Below are positions 2,968 to 20,806 of a stretch of 30,935 nt of DNA, piece by piece (within the stretch, counting starts at the first letter, position 1; the number at the start of each line of letters is the position of its first letter). Under the pieces are notes generated by a model. It worked only from the letters and a program-made list of their open reading frames with translations. It searched no databases and had not been told where the DNA came from. Position numbers and translations under genes: made by a program. Origin of the DNA: a virus (taxonomy: Duplodnaviria; Heunggongvirae; Uroviricota; Caudoviricetes); IMG/VR virus record IMGVR_UViG_2690316316_000011, positions 1 through 30,935 of that record. The stretch is one strand, 5' to 3'.

Positions 2968-3004
2968 TAAATACCCATATGTAATTTATATAGGTATTTA
3001 GTGA

Positions 3005-3448
3005 ATGGATTTAAAAAGCAGACTTAAGGAATATGAAGGTACGATTGCCTATCAGAAAAAATTGAGGTACTTCCGTAATGGAAAATTCTTCCCATACTCT
3101 GATTCATTGGGATTCAGTACTGTCGGATATGGTCATTTAATCAAACCGGGAGAAAATTTCAGTACTGGATTATCCCCGAATGAGGCAGAGACTTTACTTG
3201 ATAAAGATATTGCAGTTGCCCGGACAGGATTAAGCACATTACGTTTAGGTACTCTTCCTGCCGACATTGAGGACTATCTGATCATCATGATTTTTCAGTT
3301 AGGGGTGAATGGCGTAAGTAAATTCAGAAAACTACTGGCAGCGGCAAAGGCGGGAGATCGTGATGGTATGCGGCGTGAGTCCGTTGATTCATTATGGTAC
3401 AGACAAACGCCAAACCGGGTAAGAGATATGAATAATAAATTGAAATAA
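3005..3448 (+). CDS. endolysin, T4 lysozyme-like muramidase (GH24)
   Basis: 147-aa ORF; N-terminal catalytic Glu region (EYEGTIAYQ...VGYGH) and C-terminal 'SLWYRQTPNRVRDM' closely parallel T4 lysozyme 'SRWYNQTPNRAKRV'. Confidence 0.85.
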   Translation: MDLKSRLKEYEGTIAYQKKLRYFRNGKFFPYSDSLGFSTVGYGHLIKPGENFSTGLSPNEAETLLDKDIAVARTGLSTLRLGTLPADIEDYLIIMIFQLGVNGVSKFRKLLAAAKAGDRDGMRRESVDSLWYRQTPNRVRDMNNKLK

Positions 3449-9494: not shown

Positions 9495-10067
9495 GTGATA
9501 CCTCGAATATCTTCTTTCTTTATTTATTTGAAAACCTCTTTTCTTAATTTTTTTAGGAGGCTTGATTGGCAGGCCGCATCGGTTATAGTTGCTATGATTT
9601 TGTTTGGAGCACAAATAGGCTATAACACATATGATAAATGGAAGGAAAGTTCAGATAATGTTTTTAAAATGCGTGTAATATTATTAAGCGAAATAAACAA
9701 CAACCTTATGGCTCTTGCAACTGGCGGCGATGATTCTCAGGTATTAGGTACTTACGAAATTTGTATTCCTTTACCTGCCGGAGATACAGAAGCCATTAAA
9801 AGAGTAGCAACCGCCGTTTCCTATTTGCATGATGAAGTATATTTTTCACAATTAGAAAAGTTAGCATCACTTCCTAAAAAAGAAGTAGATGCGATAGTGA
9901 AAAGTTATTATTCATTATCAAGATTGCGTACCCTTTCTACGCAACTTGACTTCAATATCAACTATTCACCGTCTAAGGTAAAATTAATGAGAGATGAATA
10001 TTACAATCTTTATAGCTTAACAAGCTCTCTATCTAACTATTTGACTCATCACACTGAAAATCCCTAA
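9495..10067 (+). CDS. opposite-strand moron ORF, hypothetical membrane protein
   Basis: 190-aa ORF antisense to the tail operon, filling a 585-bp gap between tape measure and minor tail genes; N-terminal hydrophobic helix (AASVIVAMILFGAQIGY); AT-rich, no AGTACT copies. True start may be an internal Met. Confidence 0.3.
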   Translation: MIPRISSFFIYLKTSFLNFFRRLDWQAASVIVAMILFGAQIGYNTYDKWKESSDNVFKMRVILLSEINNNLMALATGGDDSQVLGTYEICIPLPAGDTEAIKRVATAVSYLHDEVYFSQLEKLASLPKKEVDAIVKSYYSLSRLRTLSTQLDFNINYSPSKVKLMRDEYYNLYSLTSSLSNYLTHHTENP

Positions 10068-10077
10068 TTTGAATTTC

Positions 10078-12297
10078 TTAAGTATTCCGTCGCTGACTGC
10101 TTCTCACGGCCTGAGTAACGCTATTAGCGTGTTTCTTCAACATCTCATTGAATTTCTTATCATCACCCGCAACGTCTCCCTGAATGATCAAGGGGGCGTT
10201 GACGGTGATATCTCCAGCGGTACTGCCGCCTTTCTCCTGAGTATCGAGGAACTTAGTCAGCTTCTTGTTAGCTTCTGGCTGTACTACACGCTCACCGGCT
10301 TTCAGTACAAAACTTTTGTTGTCCATACCAGCGGGTAATTCATCTACACCGCCGTGGAACTGCCCACTTGCAGCCCCCTTCGCAGTACTGATAATGCTCA
10401 TACCTAACGATAGTACCTGAGCGTAGTTTGCGAGGCTTGCGGGCCACGGCGTAGCAAGAGCCTGTGCTAATGCTGATTGTATTGATAGTACTGTCTGAGC
10501 AATAGTAATGCCCTTACTCAATGCAAATGCCGCCTGTGCCGCCCCTGAAGATTCACCAAACGCTTCTACCATGCCATCACTTAAGGATTGAGCCGTATCA
10601 CTGAATATAGTCAATTGTTGGTGTGCATTCAGGTTACTGATATCGATAGCCTGAGCGTTATACTTTGCCGTAATCTCTGCCTTTCGCTTTTCATAATCTT
10701 CATGACCCTTCAGTAATAAATCATTCTGCTGAAGTTCTGCATTCATGGCATCCTGATTATCTTTCAGTAATTGATCGGTATTATCATAACTTAAGGGATT
10801 ACCACCATTGATACGCTGATTTTGCTGATCTGTTAGGAATGATTTTTGAGTACTGTTCAGTACACCAGAAGAAATTAAGCTATTTGTATCTTTCAGACCC
10901 TGATTGGGATCTTGATAACCAACCATTGAATTGATTAAATCATTACGTTGTTTAGTACCAGAAGCATTTGCGGCATCGACATATTCTTTAAGTTGCTTTG
11001 GTGATATTCCAAGTACCTGAGCACTGTCCATAATCGTCTTAAGAAGGGCTTTCTGTTGCCTGTCGAACTGCTGTAGGCGTACTTTGAAACCCTTTTCCCC
11101 GACCTGAGCAAGTGCTGTTTCAAGATTACGCTGTGCCTGTAGCCTTTTTGCATCAGCCTGCTTTTGGGCTTGTTCTGCCTGTTTCCGTAGCTGATCGGCT
11201 TTCTTCTGAGCATCCTCACGTTCTTTGGCTTCGTCTTTCCAGCCACCTTGCGGAGCCGTAACAGTAGCTATGTCATTACGAAAGTTGTTAACGAGTCCTT
11301 CAAGATTGGCCTGAGCACTGGCGTACACACTCTGCTTGCCATTATCCATACTGCCAGTTTGCAAGGCTGCACCCTGATAGTTTAAAGCCCCGGCGGTGCG
11401 TAACTTTTCCCATATGTCTAAAAAGTCCTGTAATGTTCCCTTAGACGTTTTAATCTTCTCGTTCAGATCTTCAAATAGTCCTGCTTCATGGGGCTTCTGA
11501 TTGGCGGCATCCAGTACTGCATTCATTGCCCCCACGAGTGGATTCAGACCATCAGCGATAGTACCTTTGATACGGGTAGTCAGCTTATCCAGATTCTTAT
11601 CGAACTCTGCATAGTTAGCTGCTGCCTCGTTACTCACGGCGGCGTTCTGCCCCTGTATGTACGTCATTGCATCGGCTTCAGTATTGAACTGCTGAAGAGT
11701 ACTGATCATGTGGCTTGAATCACTCGCCAGTGTTTCCATGACGTTGACGATTTCGGCCTGTGACTTACCTGCATCCCGCATGGCATAAAACGTGTGGATC
11801 ACGGCCTGCATACCGCCATCTGCTTGTTTAAGGTACTTGTTATATTGCTGTAGGTTCAGCCCGTACTCTTTCAGGTCATCCGATACACCACCACCAGCAC
11901 GGAACGCATCACCAAGTTTATCGAGCGTATCCTTGTTGAAATCCCCAAACTTATCCATTTCAAGCCCAAGACCGCTAAACGCCGCCGATAGCTGCTGGAG
12001 CTGCATGACGGACAATCCAGTACTACGACTGATTTCATTCATTTCACGCACATATTCGCGGCTTGAATTGACCAGTGCAGTAAGGCCACCAATACCAATT
12101 GCAGCAGCCCCCGCTAAACCTGTCATTGCCGTACCGAAACCACCAGCAAGCCCACTAAAACTGCCAGTGAGATCTTCAATCACACCGCCAGCATTTGAAC
12201 CGAATTCTTCAAGTGATGAGGTGCCTTGTCGCAAGGCACGCTGTAAACCTGACGTATCCCCGTCAATATCAAAACGAATTCTATTATTATTTGCCAT
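10078..12297 (-). CDS. tail tape measure protein
   Basis: 739-aa ORF immediately downstream of G/GT chaperones; N-terminal Gly/Ala-rich segment (GLAGGFGTAMTGLAGAAAIGIGG), long Q/A/K-rich helical stretches. Confidence 0.8.
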   Translation of the reverse strand: MANNNRIRFDIDGDTSGLQRALRQGTSSLEEFGSNAGGVIEDLTGSFSGLAGGFGTAMTGLAGAAAIGIGGLTALVNSSREYVREMNEISRSTGLSVMQLQQLSAAFSGLGLEMDKFGDFNKDTLDKLGDAFRAGGGVSDDLKEYGLNLQQYNKYLKQADGGMQAVIHTFYAMRDAGKSQAEIVNVMETLASDSSHMISTLQQFNTEADAMTYIQGQNAAVSNEAAANYAEFDKNLDKLTTRIKGTIADGLNPLVGAMNAVLDAANQKPHEAGLFEDLNEKIKTSKGTLQDFLDIWEKLRTAGALNYQGAALQTGSMDNGKQSVYASAQANLEGLVNNFRNDIATVTAPQGGWKDEAKEREDAQKKADQLRKQAEQAQKQADAKRLQAQRNLETALAQVGEKGFKVRLQQFDRQQKALLKTIMDSAQVLGISPKQLKEYVDAANASGTKQRNDLINSMVGYQDPNQGLKDTNSLISSGVLNSTQKSFLTDQQNQRINGGNPLSYDNTDQLLKDNQDAMNAELQQNDLLLKGHEDYEKRKAEITAKYNAQAIDISNLNAHQQLTIFSDTAQSLSDGMVEAFGESSGAAQAAFALSKGITIAQTVLSIQSALAQALATPWPASLANYAQVLSLGMSIISTAKGAASGQFHGGVDELPAGMDNKSFVLKAGERVVQPEANKKLTKFLDTQEKGGSTAGDITVNAPLIIQGDVAGDDKKFNEMLKKHANSVTQAVRSSQRRNT

Positions 12298-12378
12298 TCT
12301 TATTTCCTAATACCTGATTCCTGATAGCGTCACCTATTGATTTAATATCATTGGCCTGAGCTTCTTTTTTCTTCTGTT

Positions 12379-12974
12379 CTACACTTCTGCTTTTTCTTGT
12401 GTAGTGAGATCGCTATTAAGAACATCCAGAAAATCAAAATCAGCAACTTTGATACTACGCCGTGCCTCTGGCGTGAGATTCCCATTACTTATCGTGGTGT
12501 AATAGCACTGATAAGCATGTTTCAACATCTCAATTTGCGTACCTGTCGGTTCTATATAGGCATCGTAAACCATAAGCATATCGAGTACTTCAGGATCTAA
12601 ATTAAAGTACTCATCTGGTGATAAACCACGTTTATTGACCATTTTACAGAAGTACCGCAGATGGCTATCACTTCTTACTTTTTTTCGACTTCATCCACTG
12701 GATTACTGTCACTGACAAGTTGAATAATTGCCTGATAAATTTTACCCTGCATAACATAATCTATACTGTTGACATTAATACGCCCATCAATATCTTCATC
12801 AGAGAAAATAGGATCACCATTTTCATCTTTAACACAAAGAATAAGAGTATTTGCTACATCAGTACAGTTTGCAAAATCGCGACCATTTGGACGGTGGATG
12901 TAGAGCGTGAAGCCTTCGATCTCAAATGGTTTTAGCTCTGGTTGTAATTTCTTTTTTAGTTCTATTAAATTCAT
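12379..12974 (-). CDS. tail assembly chaperone frameshift fusion (gpGT-like), made by -1 ribosomal frameshift
   Basis: The -1 frame is open from the slippery site (...KK-VRSDSHLRYFCK-MVNKRGLSPDEYF...) into the 87-aa ORF 12379-12642; the frame relation (codon phase +1 in coordinates) matches a -1 shift. Confidence 0.65.
12675..12974 (-). CDS. tail assembly chaperone (gpG-like)
   Basis: 99-aa acidic ORF between major tail candidate and tape measure; ends ...VDEVEKK* with a slippery heptamer immediately before the stop. Confidence 0.7.
   Translation of the reverse strand: MNLIELKKKLQPELKPFEIEGFTLYIHRPNGRDFANCTDVANTLILCVKDENGDPIFSDEDIDGRINVNSIDYVMQGKIYQAIIQLVSDSNPVDEVEKK
12678..12684 (-). promoter_or_regulatory. 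programmed -1 frameshift slippery heptamer A AAA AAG
   Basis: Minus-strand mRNA reads GTC GAA AAA AAG TAA; A_AAA_AAG in the zero frame directly before the G stop codon. Confidence 0.7.
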
Positions 12975-12992
12975 CTGTTATCTCCATATACG

Positions 12993-13021
12993 AAAAAGGG
13001 AAAGTTAATAACCTTCCCTTT
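12993..13021 (-). terminator. intrinsic terminator-like hairpin downstream of major tail gene
   Basis: On the minus transcript AAAGGGAAGG-uuauuaa-CUUUCCCUUU followed by UU; pairs perfectly only on the minus strand (one G-U), A-C mismatch on plus. Lies between the 167-aa gene stop and the G gene start. Confidence 0.45.
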
Positions 13022-13031
13022 ATTTATTAAA

Positions 13032-13535
13032 TTATGGAGTTTCAGTAATCAGTCCTGAATCAATAGCTGCACCATCTACAGCAAGCGTGAAGGTCTTAGT
13101 TACGACTTCATCCTTGTCACCACCAATAGTCGTACTCGACACGAAACAGGTGTAGATAACGTAGAATCCTGTTGTTTTAGTGGCATCTTCAAAATAGCTG
13201 AGTTTGATCTGACAACGTTTTTGATCATCGGCAAGCTGTTCTAACTTTTGGTGTACTTCATTATCTGGCAAGTAATTAACTGCAAGACTAATATCAGGAA
13301 TTGATTTAGTACCTAATAATTTCCGGTCATACGCGTTATTAAATGTTTTTACAGTAATTACGGTACTCTCAAAGCCTGAAGTTGTGAAGGTATTCACTTC
13401 GGGGATTACTTCAAAATCCGTTGTAATAGTACTGCCAGCACTTGTACCTACTTCGACCTGTAGGTTAGCACCAGCAAAAATATCCATAGCCATATTTATA
13501 TCCTTATAAGAATTGAATTGACGGGATAAATCCAT
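13032..13535 (-). CDS. major tail (tube) protein candidate
   Basis: 167-aa ORF immediately upstream of G/GT, the lambda gpV position; paralogous to the N-terminal ~150 aa of the 911-aa fibre (shared NYLPD..HQ.L and GDKD.VVTKT motifs). Likely true start at internal MAMDIF. Confidence 0.5.
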   Translation of the reverse strand: MDLSRQFNSYKDINMAMDIFAGANLQVEVGTSAGSTITTDFEVIPEVNTFTTSGFESTVITVKTFNNAYDRKLLGTKSIPDISLAVNYLPDNEVHQKLEQLADDQKRCQIKLSYFEDATKTTGFYVIYTCFVSSTTIGGDKDEVVTKTFTLAVDGAAIDSGLITETP

Positions 13536-13550
13536 TTATCCCTTTTGTAT

Positions 13551-16286
13551 TTATTTATTATCGAGTAGTGATTGTACAAGTACTTTCAATGTTTCAATTT
13601 CGGCTGCAAGTTCATCATTCTTTATTTTTAGTGCCTTGATAGCAGCAAGACCATCTAACATCATGGGTGTTTCATCGAGATGATAGAGATCACCGACTTC
13701 TTTAACGTATTGTGGATCAATATTCATAATCTGCTGTGAAACCACACCACGTCTTGGTGTTTCATCCTCATCAGATTTAAAAGTGAAGTTCACAAAATCC
13801 ATTTGCGATATATTATTGAGTGCAATATTAAGATCTAATTTTTCACCAATATTCTTTGCTCTTTCATCGGAAACTGAAGAAGTTGTTATTTGTGCCCACG
13901 CTCCCCATGCGGCAACATTCGTTTGTATCCGAGAATAGATACGATTCGACGTATCATAAAAACGTTGTTGATACCATTGATTGGTTGTTCCCATTGCTGA
14001 AGTGCCGCCGACATTTAAACCCTGAGTTGCCTGTGTAAATAATGAGCCATAGATATTTCCGCTTAATGGACCATTTGACCACGTACCGCCGACAGCTTGC
14101 CACCCCTGATTAACAACATTCATATCAGTACCAGTAGCTGCTTGTGATGAGCCAGTAGGTGCAAGTCCTCCAGCAAGGCCAATGGGTGTGCCATAGCCCG
14201 AAATTGGCGGTAGATACGCCCAGCCCTGCCCAGCGACTGACCCAATCCTATCTCTGAAATAGAAAATAACCCCCTTACCGGCTTCCTGGCTATTCTCAAT
14301 TCTTACCCGGCGACCTACCACATCATCACCACCAGTAACATCTAAGTTGATTGCGGGCCAATCATCCCGCGATACCGTTAGTTGATTGCTGATCACTTGA
14401 GGTTGATTGAACGTATTTGATCTGTCCAATGTCGGTACTTCATGCCATTGCCATTTACCACTGTTCTGTGATGGCTGCACACCTCCAGCAAAGACACGAT
14501 TACCATCAGGCTGAACAAGCATTCCAGAATAAGACGGTGAACCATCATACTGTGATACATAACCAGCACCGCCGAATGATGAAGGGGAATCAATAGTTGC
14601 TGTAGTCGTTCGAATGAACCCTTTCGGTGCATCCTTCATATCGGCTACATGGCGAGGATTGATTCCAAGGCCAACTTCTGAAAGCGTATTGTCGATTGAA
14701 TAAATTTGCTGACCATTTAATGTCACAGAACTACCTACGGTAATAGATCCACTGAAGGTCTGCCCAGCACTCCATGTATTGGCAGTGGAAAGCAATGGTA
14801 CAGTACTTCCAGATGTACCAATGTTTGTTGTCGCTGCCGTGCCAAGTCCTAAAGCAGTACGTGCTGCCGCTGCCGTCGTAGCCCCTGTACCGCCACTCGT
14901 TAAGGGTAATGGCGTAGAGAGGGATAACGACGATAAAGCTGCCGTACCGCCAGTGATAGCGGCTGCGTTAGCATTCTGCGTTGCGAGGCTACCTAACCCA
15001 AGATTAGTACGTGCTGTTTCTGTATTCGCAATGTCCGATAGATTCGATGCGATTTTTAGCTGTGCGTCATTAGTAATAGAACCAAGACCAATATCATCTT
15101 TCGAAAGTACTATATCGGCAGAGAGCTCATGACCATTTATCACAATCGTTTTTGGTACAAAATCAGTATTAACATGAGTAGTTAGTAAATTAATTGAAGC
15201 ATTAACACCATCGATCGTGCTATCGACTTCACCCTTTGAGTAAACATCCAGATTGTTACGGGCTTCTTCAATATCAGTCAGATCAGAAAGGTTATGACTG
15301 ATCGCCAATTGTGCATCGTCAGTAACGGAACCAAGACCAACATCATCTTTCGAAAGTACTACATCATCGCTGAGTACATGCCCGTTAATCGTTCTGGTAT
15401 CCGGTACACTGCCTGTGTCTGAACTCGTTAGTACCACATCATCAGAAAGTACATGGCCATTAACGGTACGTTCTACAGGAACAGCACCAACATCGCCAGG
15501 AGTCAGAACAATGTCAGTACTCAGTTGCTTGCCGTTTACTGTTCGAGTGAGAGGAACATAGCGTGCGTCCATCTGTGTAGCGGTATAGATACGAGTCCAC
15601 GCTGTAGTGGCATTCTTCGCATAGATACTTAGCGTTCCCGATTTCGTCATAGCAAGGGAACTGACAGACGAACCATCAACCAGACCAATCCCCATCATGT
15701 CGGCACCAGCAGGATTACCCGCCTGTGTTGACGGTACTTTGATAAAGCTGTTACCCGTAGGGATAGCCGGTGCGTATTGAGGAACATCCGTTGTGTTTGA
15801 ACCTACACCATAATCTCCCTGATAGACCGGAAGTAACGCCGTAATCGCCTGACTACGGGCAACAACATCAGTTGGGGTAAATTCATAGGTTTTGGTTACT
15901 ACGCTATCCTTATCCCCGGAGAGTTGAGTACTGGTAATCGCCCCGTTCACCATTGCATAAGTTAACTGGCTGCCCTCTTCCTGATAGGCAATGGTTAGCT
16001 GGAACACATCCTGATTTTCTGCTGCTTCATCCAGAAATTGATGTGTAGAATCATCAGGGAGGTAATTAACAACAATATCAACTGGATTAGCGGATTTCTC
16101 TGCAAGTAATTTACTGTTATATGTGCTGTTGTAGGTGTCGTACTGATTCACCTCTGATTCAATCTCCAGTACTGGAAATTCTGCCACTTCATTAATCTGG
16201 ACGTTGCCAATTCCCTGTGGTGATCTGTTCCCCGTATCGGGGTTATATGATAATGAAAGTCCATTACCTGTAAAAATATCTGCCAT
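13551..16286 (-). CDS. tail fibre with N-terminal tube-like domain and C-terminal intramolecular chaperone (peptidase S74-like) domain
   Basis: 911-aa ORF; N-terminal domain paralogous to the 167-aa neighbour; central repeats (RTVNGKQLSTDIVLT / RTVNGHVLSDDVVLT / RTINGHVLSDDVVLS / KTIVINGHELSADIVLS; GLGSVTDDAQL / GLGSITNDAQL); C-terminal 106 aa begin SDERAKNIGEKLDLN, matching the auto-cleavage motif of endosialidase / T5 pb1-type chaperone domains. Confidence 0.7.
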   Translation of the reverse strand: MADIFTGNGLSLSYNPDTGNRSPQGIGNVQINEVAEFPVLEIESEVNQYDTYNSTYNSKLLAEKSANPVDIVVNYLPDDSTHQFLDEAAENQDVFQLTIAYQEEGSQLTYAMVNGAITSTQLSGDKDSVVTKTYEFTPTDVVARSQAITALLPVYQGDYGVGSNTTDVPQYAPAIPTGNSFIKVPSTQAGNPAGADMMGIGLVDGSSVSSLAMTKSGTLSIYAKNATTAWTRIYTATQMDARYVPLTRTVNGKQLSTDIVLTPGDVGAVPVERTVNGHVLSDDVVLTSSDTGSVPDTRTINGHVLSDDVVLSKDDVGLGSVTDDAQLAISHNLSDLTDIEEARNNLDVYSKGEVDSTIDGVNASINLLTTHVNTDFVPKTIVINGHELSADIVLSKDDIGLGSITNDAQLKIASNLSDIANTETARTNLGLGSLATQNANAAAITGGTAALSSLSLSTPLPLTSGGTGATTAAAARTALGLGTAATTNIGTSGSTVPLLSTANTWSAGQTFSGSITVGSSVTLNGQQIYSIDNTLSEVGLGINPRHVADMKDAPKGFIRTTTATIDSPSSFGGAGYVSQYDGSPSYSGMLVQPDGNRVFAGGVQPSQNSGKWQWHEVPTLDRSNTFNQPQVISNQLTVSRDDWPAINLDVTGGDDVVGRRVRIENSQEAGKGVIFYFRDRIGSVAGQGWAYLPPISGYGTPIGLAGGLAPTGSSQAATGTDMNVVNQGWQAVGGTWSNGPLSGNIYGSLFTQATQGLNVGGTSAMGTTNQWYQQRFYDTSNRIYSRIQTNVAAWGAWAQITTSSVSDERAKNIGEKLDLNIALNNISQMDFVNFTFKSDEDETPRRGVVSQQIMNIDPQYVKEVGDLYHLDETPMMLDGLAAIKALKIKNDELAAEIETLKVLVQSLLDNK

Positions 16287-17029: not shown

Positions 17030-20806
<3,777 letters not shown>

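What the first reader, a model, noticed from the sequence alone, without database searches (positions are those of the whole stretch)
12379..12974. Canonical -1 programmed frameshift joining the two tail assembly chaperone ORFs
The G-like ORF ends GAA AAA AAG TAA on the minus strand. The heptamer A AAA AAG (plus coordinates 12678-12684) is the classic dnaX-type slippery site, and the -1 frame runs open from it into the 87-aa ORF, predicting a ~200-aa G-T fusion. This supports the identity of the flanking major-tail and tape-measure genes.
Basis: seen in the sequence. Interest (0 to 1): 0.4.

Follow-up and report, generated by a model that had tools for sequence, protein, structure and literature searches.

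The report
Tail chaperone G-T frameshift site
This is an ordinary but well-supported case of the ribosomal "slip" that long-tailed phages use to make a short and a long version of a tail-building helper protein, found in an unannotated E. coli prophage whose own copy of the long version has lost its last 31 residues.

Summary
On the minus strand a 99-aa ORF (12974..12675) ends GAA AAA AAG TAA. The heptamer A AAA AAG is at 12684..12678. The -1 frame opens only 13 nt before the stop and runs into the 87-aa ORF, giving a 198-aa fusion.

In 47 of 48 viral-contig relatives (43-96% identity), G AAA AAA R TAA is kept in phase with a 125-134-codon -1 ORF behind it. The 12 codons between the slip site and the first ATG of T evolve as coding sequence, though they have no start codon or Shine-Dalgarno site. 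I found no stimulatory RNA structure or upstream Shine-Dalgarno-like element, so "dnaX-type" applies to the heptamer only.

New point: this E. coli copy carries a 1-nt deletion plus substitution (GTGAAAGAA to GTG-TAGAA at about 12381). It removes the conserved C-terminal 31 residues of T, so intact relatives make a fusion of about 229 aa. The family is labelled "hypothetical protein" wherever a source names it.

Verdict: a new member of a known kind, of low interest.

The parts
12675..12974 (-). G ORF, the tail assembly chaperone short form (99 aa). It has its own Shine-Dalgarno site (GGAG).
12678..12684 (-). Slippery heptamer A AAA AAG in X XXY YYZ phase, the proposed -1 shift site.
   Evidence: Invariant as A AAA AAR in 47 of 48 IMG/VR loci and 4 of 5 GTDB loci. 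Zero column entropy.
12675..12677 (-). Zero-frame stop TAA directly abutting the heptamer. It may act as a "shifty stop".
   Evidence: Always TAA wherever the motif is kept, including the first A of TAA, which is the third base of the T-frame codon GTA/ATA.
12691..12693 (-). TGA that closes the T (-1) frame upstream. It limits the productive shift window to 13 nt.
12643..12678 (-). Twelve linker codons in the T frame (VRSDSHLRYFCK). They have no start codon and can be reached only by frameshifting from G.
   Evidence: The synonymous fraction of single-base codon differences is 0.57 in the T frame, against 0.21 and 0.16 in the other two frames. No stop in 29 of 29 unique sequences. Start-like codons in only 4 of 29.
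12379..12642 (-). T part as a listed ORF (87 aa from its ATG). It has no Shine-Dalgarno site and is truncated in this copy.
   Evidence: Anti-SD duplex only -3.0 kcal/mol. Relatives have 118 aa from the same ATG.
12379..12382 (-). Lesion: GTG-TAGAA where relatives have GTGAAAGAA. It is a 1-nt deletion plus a substitution, and it creates TAG and shifts the frame.
   Evidence: Alignment A1. The 87-aa form is on 1-2 contigs, against 254 collection blocks for the 118-aa form.
12287..12379 (-). Remnant of the T C-terminus (EQKKKEAQANDIKSIGDAIRNQVLGNKNGK*). It is now out of frame, and its stop overlaps the start of the tape measure gene.
   Evidence: This segment is most of a long C-terminal helix, residues 81-116, in the T model, which has only moderate confidence.
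13032..13535 (-). Major tail (tube) protein gene, upstream neighbour.
   Evidence: Pfam Phage_tail_3 above its cutoff, and phrog_158 at E 8e-20.
10078..12297 (-). Tape measure protein gene, downstream neighbour.
   Evidence: phrog_13674 at E 2.8e-88. Distant tape measure matches in isolated phages.
12999..13018 (-). Terminator-like hairpin with a T tract between the major tail gene and G. It may attenuate expression of the chaperone and tape measure genes.
   Evidence: Consensus scan only. A terminator is annotated at the same position in Klebsiella phage KLB5.

Best explanation
Proposed mechanism. Most ribosomes translating the chaperone gene G end at TAA and release the 99-aa G protein. A minority slip one base back on A AAA AAG, where the single E. 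coli tRNA-Lys can re-pair with AAA in the -1 frame. These ribosomes continue through 12 linker codons into T and make a G-T fusion.

By analogy with lambda, G and the G part of G-T coat the tape measure protein. The T part recruits the major tail protein, and neither product ends up in the virion.

The recoding signal appears to consist of the heptamer and the abutting stop codon only. No RNA structure or Shine-Dalgarno-like stimulator is present, which fits a low yield of a few per cent. I cannot tell whether the slip is a tandem P/A-site slip or a P-site slip of tRNA-Lys from AAG to AAA while TAA waits in the A site.

In this particular E. coli prophage a later mutation truncates T by 31 conserved residues. 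The fusion made here (198 aa instead of about 229) is therefore probably impaired.

Shown here: the sequence anatomy, its conservation, the coding signature of the linker, the fold of G and the lesion. Inferred: the slip itself, its efficiency, the protein interactions and the effect of the truncation.
For: - Anatomy: the heptamer is in phase inside a 13-nt productive window, and the -1 frame is open for 99 codons.
- Gene order: terminase, portal, head, tail tube, G/T, tape measure, distal tail protein, central fibre, all on one strand.
- Conservation: G AAA AAA R TAA is kept in phase, with a 125-134-codon -1 ORF, in 47 of 48 IMG/VR loci at 43-96% protein identity and in 4 of 5 GTDB genomes. 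Flanking codons vary freely.
- Internal control: a Lys-Lys pair near the N-terminus of G is encoded variously (AAA AAG, AAG AAA and others) and forms a heptamer in only about 13 of 47 unique sequences. General Lys codon usage in the window is 59% AAA and 41% AAG.
- Linker: it evolves as coding sequence in the T frame without a start codon, and the T ATG has no Shine-Dalgarno site.
- Literature: A_AAA_AAG is the most shift-prone heptamer in E. coli, which has a single tRNA-Lys. Lambda G/GT frameshifting is low-level, and its roughly 30:1 product ratio is crucial for tail assembly. G-T frameshifting is widely conserved in long-tailed phages (PMC5009743).
- Host: E. coli.
Against: There is no direct evidence for the fusion protein or for the efficiency of the slip. 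No stimulatory element was found, so efficiency could be very low. Sequence match of G to a named chaperone family is below Pfam's cutoff (20.4 bits against 28.8). T matches nothing known by sequence or fold. One relative, Phytobacter massiliensis JC163, has one A fewer, which puts T in the +1 frame. The copy in the window has a damaged T, so the system may no longer work in this strain.
Confidence: 0.85

Rival explanations
1. Transcriptional slippage. RNA polymerase adds one extra A on the run of seven A, so some mRNAs carry G and T in one frame. The ribosome reads these normally and makes the same G-T protein.
For: The site is a homopolymer run, A7 in the window and A8 in 12 of 47 relatives. 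One extra A gives exactly the same protein. No ribosomal stimulator was found. Bacteria do use transcriptional slippage productively (PMC5009743).
Against: High-efficiency slippage by bacterial RNA polymerase is reported for runs of 9 A or T (PMC5009743), and no relative has more than 8. In 35 of 47 loci the run is closed by G, giving A AAA AAG, which is the best ribosomal shift site in E. coli. A longer run would favour the polymerase. The strict phase and the abutting stop mean something for a ribosome but not for a polymerase.
Confidence: 0.07
2. No recoding. T is translated on its own from ATG 12642 as a separate small protein, and the heptamer is just the codons for a Lys-rich C-terminus.
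For: Gene callers annotate T as a separate ORF from this ATG in hundreds of genomes, and the ATG is conserved.
Against: The ATG has no Shine-Dalgarno site, -3.0 kcal/mol against -6.4 for G. The 12 codons upstream of it have no start codon in 25 of 29 unique sequences. Even so, they keep an open frame in 29 of 29 and show a synonymous fraction of 0.57 in that frame, against 0.21 and 0.16 in the others. The -1 frame always opens just before the heptamer, and G AAA AAA R TAA is invariant at the nucleotide level.
Confidence: 0.03
3. Chance juxtaposition or relic. The heptamer is there by chance in an A-rich, Lys-rich sequence and has no function in any member.
For: AAAAAAG is over-represented in the window, 19 copies against 10.4 expected. 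A second in-phase copy sits in the same gene and leads nowhere.
Against: The expected number in the 3-codon window is about 0.002. The site is invariant across about 50 loci down to 43% identity, while the other heptamer is not.
Confidence: 0.02

Closest known systems
Phage lambda gpG / gpGT tail assembly chaperones (Levin, Hendrix and Casjens 1993; Xu, Hendrix and Duda 2004, 2013, 2014; cited from PMC5009743)
   Same: Two overlapping ORFs lie between the major tail gene and the tape measure gene. [quoted passage not shown] The second ORF has no start signals of its own. No strong stimulator is present, so a low-level shift is expected.
   Different: The heptamer is A AAA AAG, not lambda's G GGA AAG (the lambda heptamer is from my own knowledge). 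The zero-frame stop abuts the heptamer directly. I detected no sequence similarity to lambda G or T, and T is an orphan. The copy in the window has a truncated T.
HK97 tail assembly chaperone, PDB 2ob9
   Different: Only the fold is shared, and a sequence profile search of PDB finds nothing. The comparison rests on a predicted model.
E. coli dnaX frameshift cassette
   Same: Identical heptamer A AAA AAG, the same host, and the same single tRNA-Lys logic (PMC5009743).
   Different: dnaX has an upstream Shine-Dalgarno-like element and a downstream stem-loop and shifts at about 50% (from my own knowledge). Here neither stimulator is present or conserved, and no Rfam family matches at the site.
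"Shifty stop" frameshifting (Weiss et al. 1987, cited in PMC5009743)
   Same: A stop codon lies immediately 3' of a slippery run, so slow termination may give the P-site tRNA time to slip.
   Different: Not tested here. The invariance of TAA can also be explained by the need to end G at the right length.

Membership tests
Tail assembly chaperone G/GT programmed -1 frameshift of long-tailed phages | Two same-strand ORFs between the major tail protein gene and the tape measure gene | tested here: met
   Major tail protein 13535..13032, G 12974..12675, T 12642..12379, tape measure 12297..10078. The whole structural module is in the canonical order.
Tail assembly chaperone G/GT programmed -1 frameshift of long-tailed phages | The second ORF is in the -1 frame, overlaps the end of the first and lacks its own initiation signals | tested here: met
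   13-nt overlap. No Shine-Dalgarno site before ATG 12642, and no start codon in the linker.
Tail assembly chaperone G/GT programmed -1 frameshift of long-tailed phages | An X XXY YYZ slippery heptamer in phase within the overlap | tested here: met
   A AAA AAG at 12684..12678.
Tail assembly chaperone G/GT programmed -1 frameshift of long-tailed phages | The arrangement is conserved among diverged relatives | tested here: met
   47 of 48 IMG/VR loci and 4 of 5 GTDB loci. Coding signature of the linker.
Tail assembly chaperone G/GT programmed -1 frameshift of long-tailed phages | The first ORF is homologous to known tail assembly chaperones by sequence | tested here: inconclusive
   Phage_TAC_13 at 20.4 bits, against a cutoff of 28.8. 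There are weak matches in 31 of 32 homologues, best E 3.4e-5. phrog_344 at E 4.3e-5.
Tail assembly chaperone G/GT programmed -1 frameshift of long-tailed phages | The first ORF has the tail assembly chaperone fold | tested here: met
Tail assembly chaperone G/GT programmed -1 frameshift of long-tailed phages | Both G and G-T are made, in a skewed ratio, and both are needed for tail assembly | not testable with these tools
   Needs a reporter assay, mass spectrometry and genetics.
Intact copy of this prophage family's G-T gene | T frame open for 125-134 codons after the slip site, ending over the tape measure start codon | tested here: not met
   Only 98 codons in the window. The lesion GTG-TAGAA replaces GTGAAAGAA.
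dnaX-type frameshift cassette | A AAA AAG heptamer | tested here: met
dnaX-type frameshift cassette | Shine-Dalgarno-like stimulator about 10 nt upstream | tested here: not met
   The anti-SD duplex of the 19 nt upstream has a median of -3.1 kcal/mol over 42 sequences, against a background median of -2.2. The GG of GGAT is not conserved.
dnaX-type frameshift cassette | Stem-loop a few nucleotides downstream | tested here: not met
   MFE z-scores of 0.17 (95 nt) and -1.34 (48 nt). RNAalifold predicts 0 pairs over 44 sequences. Median z of 0.38 over 31 relatives. No Rfam family matches at the site, and all matches in the region are weak and far below gathering scores.
Productive transcriptional slippage site | A homopolymer run long enough for efficient polymerase slippage (9 A or T in the bacterial cases cited in PMC5009743) | tested here: not met
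   The run is 7 A in the window and at most 8 in relatives.

The most novel reading that the evidence does not exclude
The whole recoding signal may be the 10 nt A AAA AAG UAA, which are invariant in a prophage family that has diverged to 43% identity and has no RNA structure or Shine-Dalgarno-like stimulator. The abutting stop codon would then be the stimulator, making this a minimal "shifty stop" -1 cassette that sets the G to G-T ratio. In addition, the E. coli copy in this window would be a natural T-truncation mutant that could show what the conserved C-terminal helix of T does.
Probability: 0.3. Interest if true: 0.35.

Novelty: new member of a known kind. Interest (0 to 1): 0.22.

Why it matters
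It matters mainly for annotation. G and T of this prophage family occur on hundreds of E. coli and Klebsiella contigs. Every member to which a source gives a name is called "hypothetical protein", with T called as a separate gene from various start codons. Recognising the frameshift names two genes and fixes the identity of the tail tube and tape measure genes next to them. It also flags this strain's prophage as probably tail-defective.

The family offers a clean natural example of a bare A AAA AAG plus stop cassette in E. coli. This could be used to measure how much an adjacent stop codon contributes to -1 frameshifting. None of this would surprise a specialist.

Tried and rejected
- **Isolated phages.** Megablast of 4 kb and tblastn of the fusion against 50,697 phage records gave no match. 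Tape measure tblastn found only distant phages at no more than 53% identity over part of the protein. Their chaperone regions belong to other families and carry no annotated frameshift.
- **Complete E. coli genomes.** Megablast of the 801-nt region gave no match.
- **PDB sequence profile search with the G alignment.** Only chance-level matches.
- **Rfam.** No frameshift element. All eight matches are far below their gathering scores.
- **Downstream hairpin seen by eye** (AGAAGT...ACTTCT, starting 2 nt after the heptamer). It is no more stable than shuffled sequence and is not conserved. Rejected as a stimulator.
- **Upstream GGAT as a Shine-Dalgarno-like stimulator.** The GG is not conserved. 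Rejected.
- **P0003 as a natural hard-wired in-frame G-T fusion.** It comes from a long-read "tig" assembly whose neighbouring genes are all broken into pieces. Rejected as a homopolymer assembly error.
- **T structure model.** Moderate confidence, pLDDT 72 and pTM 0.38. It has no significant structural neighbour in BFVD, so it says nothing about what T does.
- **Rescue of the truncated T by a second -1 slip** at GAA AAA GCA (12396..12388). The frames would allow it (read), but there is no canonical heptamer, and the combined yield of two rare events would be negligible. Not pursued.

Full report
**1. What is in the sequence**

All relevant genes are on the minus strand. The ORF 12974..12675 encodes 99 aa and ends GTC GAA AAA AAG TAA. 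The string AAAAAAG lies at 12678-12684, in the X XXY YYZ phase of that ORF.

Translating one base upstream gives ...SSG* SRKKVRSDSHLRYFCKMVNKRGL..., which runs to the stop of the 87-aa ORF 12642..12379. A -1 slip on the heptamer therefore yields 99 + 12 + 87 = 198 aa.

The -1 frame is closed by TGA at 12693..12691. A shift can give a fusion only within 13 nt, and the heptamer sits exactly there.

**2. Is it more than chance?**

The bare heptamer string is common in this A-rich window, 19 copies against 10.4 expected. In-phase A_AAA_AAR is rare: 5 in 8115 codons of minus-strand genes, or about 0.002 expected in a 3-codon window. Of the six in-phase sites in ORFs of at least 80 aa, only this one is followed by a long -1 ORF, 99 codons against 3-17 for the others.

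**3. Context and identity of the proteins**

The minus strand carries a siphovirus-type structural module in the canonical order:

- large terminase;
- portal;
- protease and major head fusion;
- a 911-aa tail-tube and fibre protein;
- major tail protein (13535..13032; Phage_tail_3, phrog_158);
- G and T;
- tape measure protein (12297..10078; phrog_13674, E 2.8e-88);
- distal tail protein, a further tail protein and the central fibre.

G matches Pfam Phage_TAC_13 only below the curated cutoff (20.4 against 28.8 bits), but 31 of 32 homologues give the same weak match. phrog_344, a tail assembly chaperone family, scores E 4.3e-5.

T matches nothing by sequence. Its model has only moderate confidence and no structural neighbours.

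**4. Comparative evidence**

No isolated phage is close. However, 48 IMG/VR contigs encode relatives of G at 43-96% identity. I also retrieved two E. coli contigs carrying the intact 118-aa form of T and five GTDB genomes: Scandinavium, Pluralibacter, Buttiauxella and two Phytobacter.

In 47 of the 48 IMG/VR loci and 4 of the 5 GTDB loci, G ends GAA AAA AAR TAA. The last base of the heptamer is G in 35 of those 47 IMG/VR loci and A in 12. The -1 frame stays open for 125-134 codons.

Column entropy is zero across G AAA AAA and TAA, while the neighbouring codons vary freely.

An internal control is available in the same gene. The Lys-Lys pair at codons 7-8 is written AAA AAG, AAG AAA, AAA CAA and so on. 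It forms an in-phase heptamer in only about 13 of 47 unique sequences. The window's genes use AAA for 59% and AAG for 41% of Lys codons.

The 12 codons between the slip site and the first ATG of T are informative:

- There is no stop in the T frame in 29 of 29 unique sequences.
- A start-like codon occurs in only 4 of 29.
- 57% of single-base codon differences are synonymous in the T frame, against 21% and 16% in the other two frames.

These codons are therefore translated, and they can be reached only from G.

The T ATG has no Shine-Dalgarno site (-3.0 kcal/mol), while the G start scores -6.4.

**5. Exceptions**

L047 and L057 are the same Phytobacter massiliensis JC163 sequence. It has one A fewer (GAA AAA AAT AAT...), which puts T in the +1 frame. 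This may be a homopolymer miscall. To my recollection that genome was pyrosequenced, but I could not check this.

P0003 looked like an in-frame G-T fusion. It comes from a long-read assembly in which the neighbouring genes are all fragmented, so I treat it as an artefact.

**6. Stimulators**

I found none:

- The 95 nt from the heptamer fold no better than shuffles (z 0.17), and the 48 nt after it only weakly better (z -1.34).
- RNAalifold finds no consensus pair over 44 sequences.
- The median z over 31 relatives is 0.38.
- There is no conserved Shine-Dalgarno-like element upstream, with a median duplex of -3.1 kcal/mol against a background of -2.2.
- No Rfam family matches at the site.

The conserved signal is therefore the heptamer plus the abutting TAA. 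A_AAA_AAG is reported as the most shift-prone heptamer in E. coli, whose single tRNA-Lys pairs better with AAA than with AAG. Lambda needs only a low-level shift, and the roughly 30:1 ratio of its two products is crucial for tail assembly (PMC5009743). A bare heptamer is therefore plausible.

The stop codon may help as a "shifty stop" (Weiss et al. 1987, as cited in PMC5009743). Its invariance can also be explained by the need to end G at the right place, so this point remains open.

**7. Rival mechanisms**

- **Transcriptional slippage.** It would give the same protein. However, efficient bacterial cases use runs of 9 A or T (PMC5009743). Here the run is 7, at most 8 in relatives, and in most loci it is closed by the G that is best for the ribosome.
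- **Independent initiation of T.** The linker analysis argues against it.
- **Chance.** The conservation across the family argues against it.

**8. A lesion in this copy**

The window is an E. coli contig (GCA_001285325.1). Every relative has a T extension of 125-134 codons, ending in a TAA that overlaps the tape measure start. The window has only 98.

Alignment with close relatives shows GTG-TAGAA in the window where they have GTGAAAGAA. This 1-nt deletion plus substitution creates TAG at 12381..12379 and throws the last 30 codons (12379..12287) out of frame.

The lost segment is conserved, with a consensus of about SIGEAIKxQVLGKKxNGK. It forms most of a long C-terminal helix in the T model, which has only moderate confidence.

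The look-ups found the 87-aa form on one or two contigs, while the 118-aa form is indexed in 254 blocks of the collection. The change is not in a homopolymer, so I take it for a real mutation rather than a sequencing error. It probably impairs G-T in this strain. That last step is inference.

**9. Comparison with what is known**

This works like lambda G/GT and passes every test of that kind that can be run on sequence. Its product has the HK97 chaperone fold. It shares only the heptamer with dnaX and fails both dnaX stimulator tests.

It is a new member of a known kind, in a prophage family that public databases leave as "hypothetical protein" wherever they name it. Interest is low. The finding is sound, useful for annotation and not surprising.

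Noticed in passing
window 12379-12382 and 12287-12379 (-): T is truncated in this copy. GTG-TAGAA replaces the relatives' GTGAAAGAA, so 31 conserved C-terminal residues are lost and their coding sequence remains out of frame up to the tape measure start.
   Followed up: yes
window 13551-16286 (-): A 911-aa ORF directly upstream of the major tail gene. About its first 135 residues are a paralogue of the major tail protein (36% identity, E 2e-21). Fibre-like repeats and a C-terminal Peptidase_S74 intramolecular chaperone domain follow. This looks like a tail-tube domain fused to a fibre.
   Followed up: partly
window 12951-12957 (-): A second in-phase A AAA AAG lies at codons 6-8 of G. The -1 frame closes after 9 codons, so any slip here would be abortive. 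It is present in only about 13 of 47 unique relatives, so it is probably incidental.
   Followed up: yes
window 12999-13018 (-): A terminator-like hairpin with a T tract lies between the major tail gene and G. It may lower expression of the chaperone and tape measure genes relative to the tube protein. A terminator is annotated at the same position in Klebsiella phage KLB5.
   Followed up: no
window 9495-10067 (+): A 190-aa ORF on the opposite strand sits between the tape measure and distal tail protein genes and has no PHROG match. The close E. coli relative L049 has a different 209-aa DUF6216 gene at the same place. This looks like an exchangeable moron slot.
   Followed up: partly
L047 3290-3345 and L057 1792-1840: Phytobacter massiliensis JC163 has GAAAAAAATAAT, one A fewer than its nearest relatives. 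G then runs on for 14 codons and T lies in the +1 frame. This is either a homopolymer miscall or a real +1/-2 arrangement.
   Followed up: partly
L003, L007 and similar loci, the 10 nt after the G stop: In part of the family the T-frame codons V-R-G-D are written GTAAGAGGTGAT or GTAAGGGGTGAT. This is a strong Shine-Dalgarno-like sequence directly 3' of the slip site, with an anti-SD duplex down to -8.2 kcal/mol. The window has the weaker GAAGTGAT, and distant relatives lack it. Its meaning is unknown.
   Followed up: partly
window 17030-18826 (-): A 598-aa ORF matches both major head protein and head maturation protease PHROG families. It appears to be a protease and capsid fusion gene.
   Followed up: no
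L052 (ENA ERZ1332367 tig00000001): An apparent hard-wired in-frame G-T fusion (P0003). It lies in a long-read assembly whose phage genes are fragmented, so it is most likely an assembly artefact.
   Followed up: yes
L009 about 3001-3297: My script found only a 25-aa ATG-initiated ORF for G in this locus, although tblastn aligns residues 1-99. G may carry a stop or a frameshift upstream there. The slip site and T are intact.
   Followed up: no
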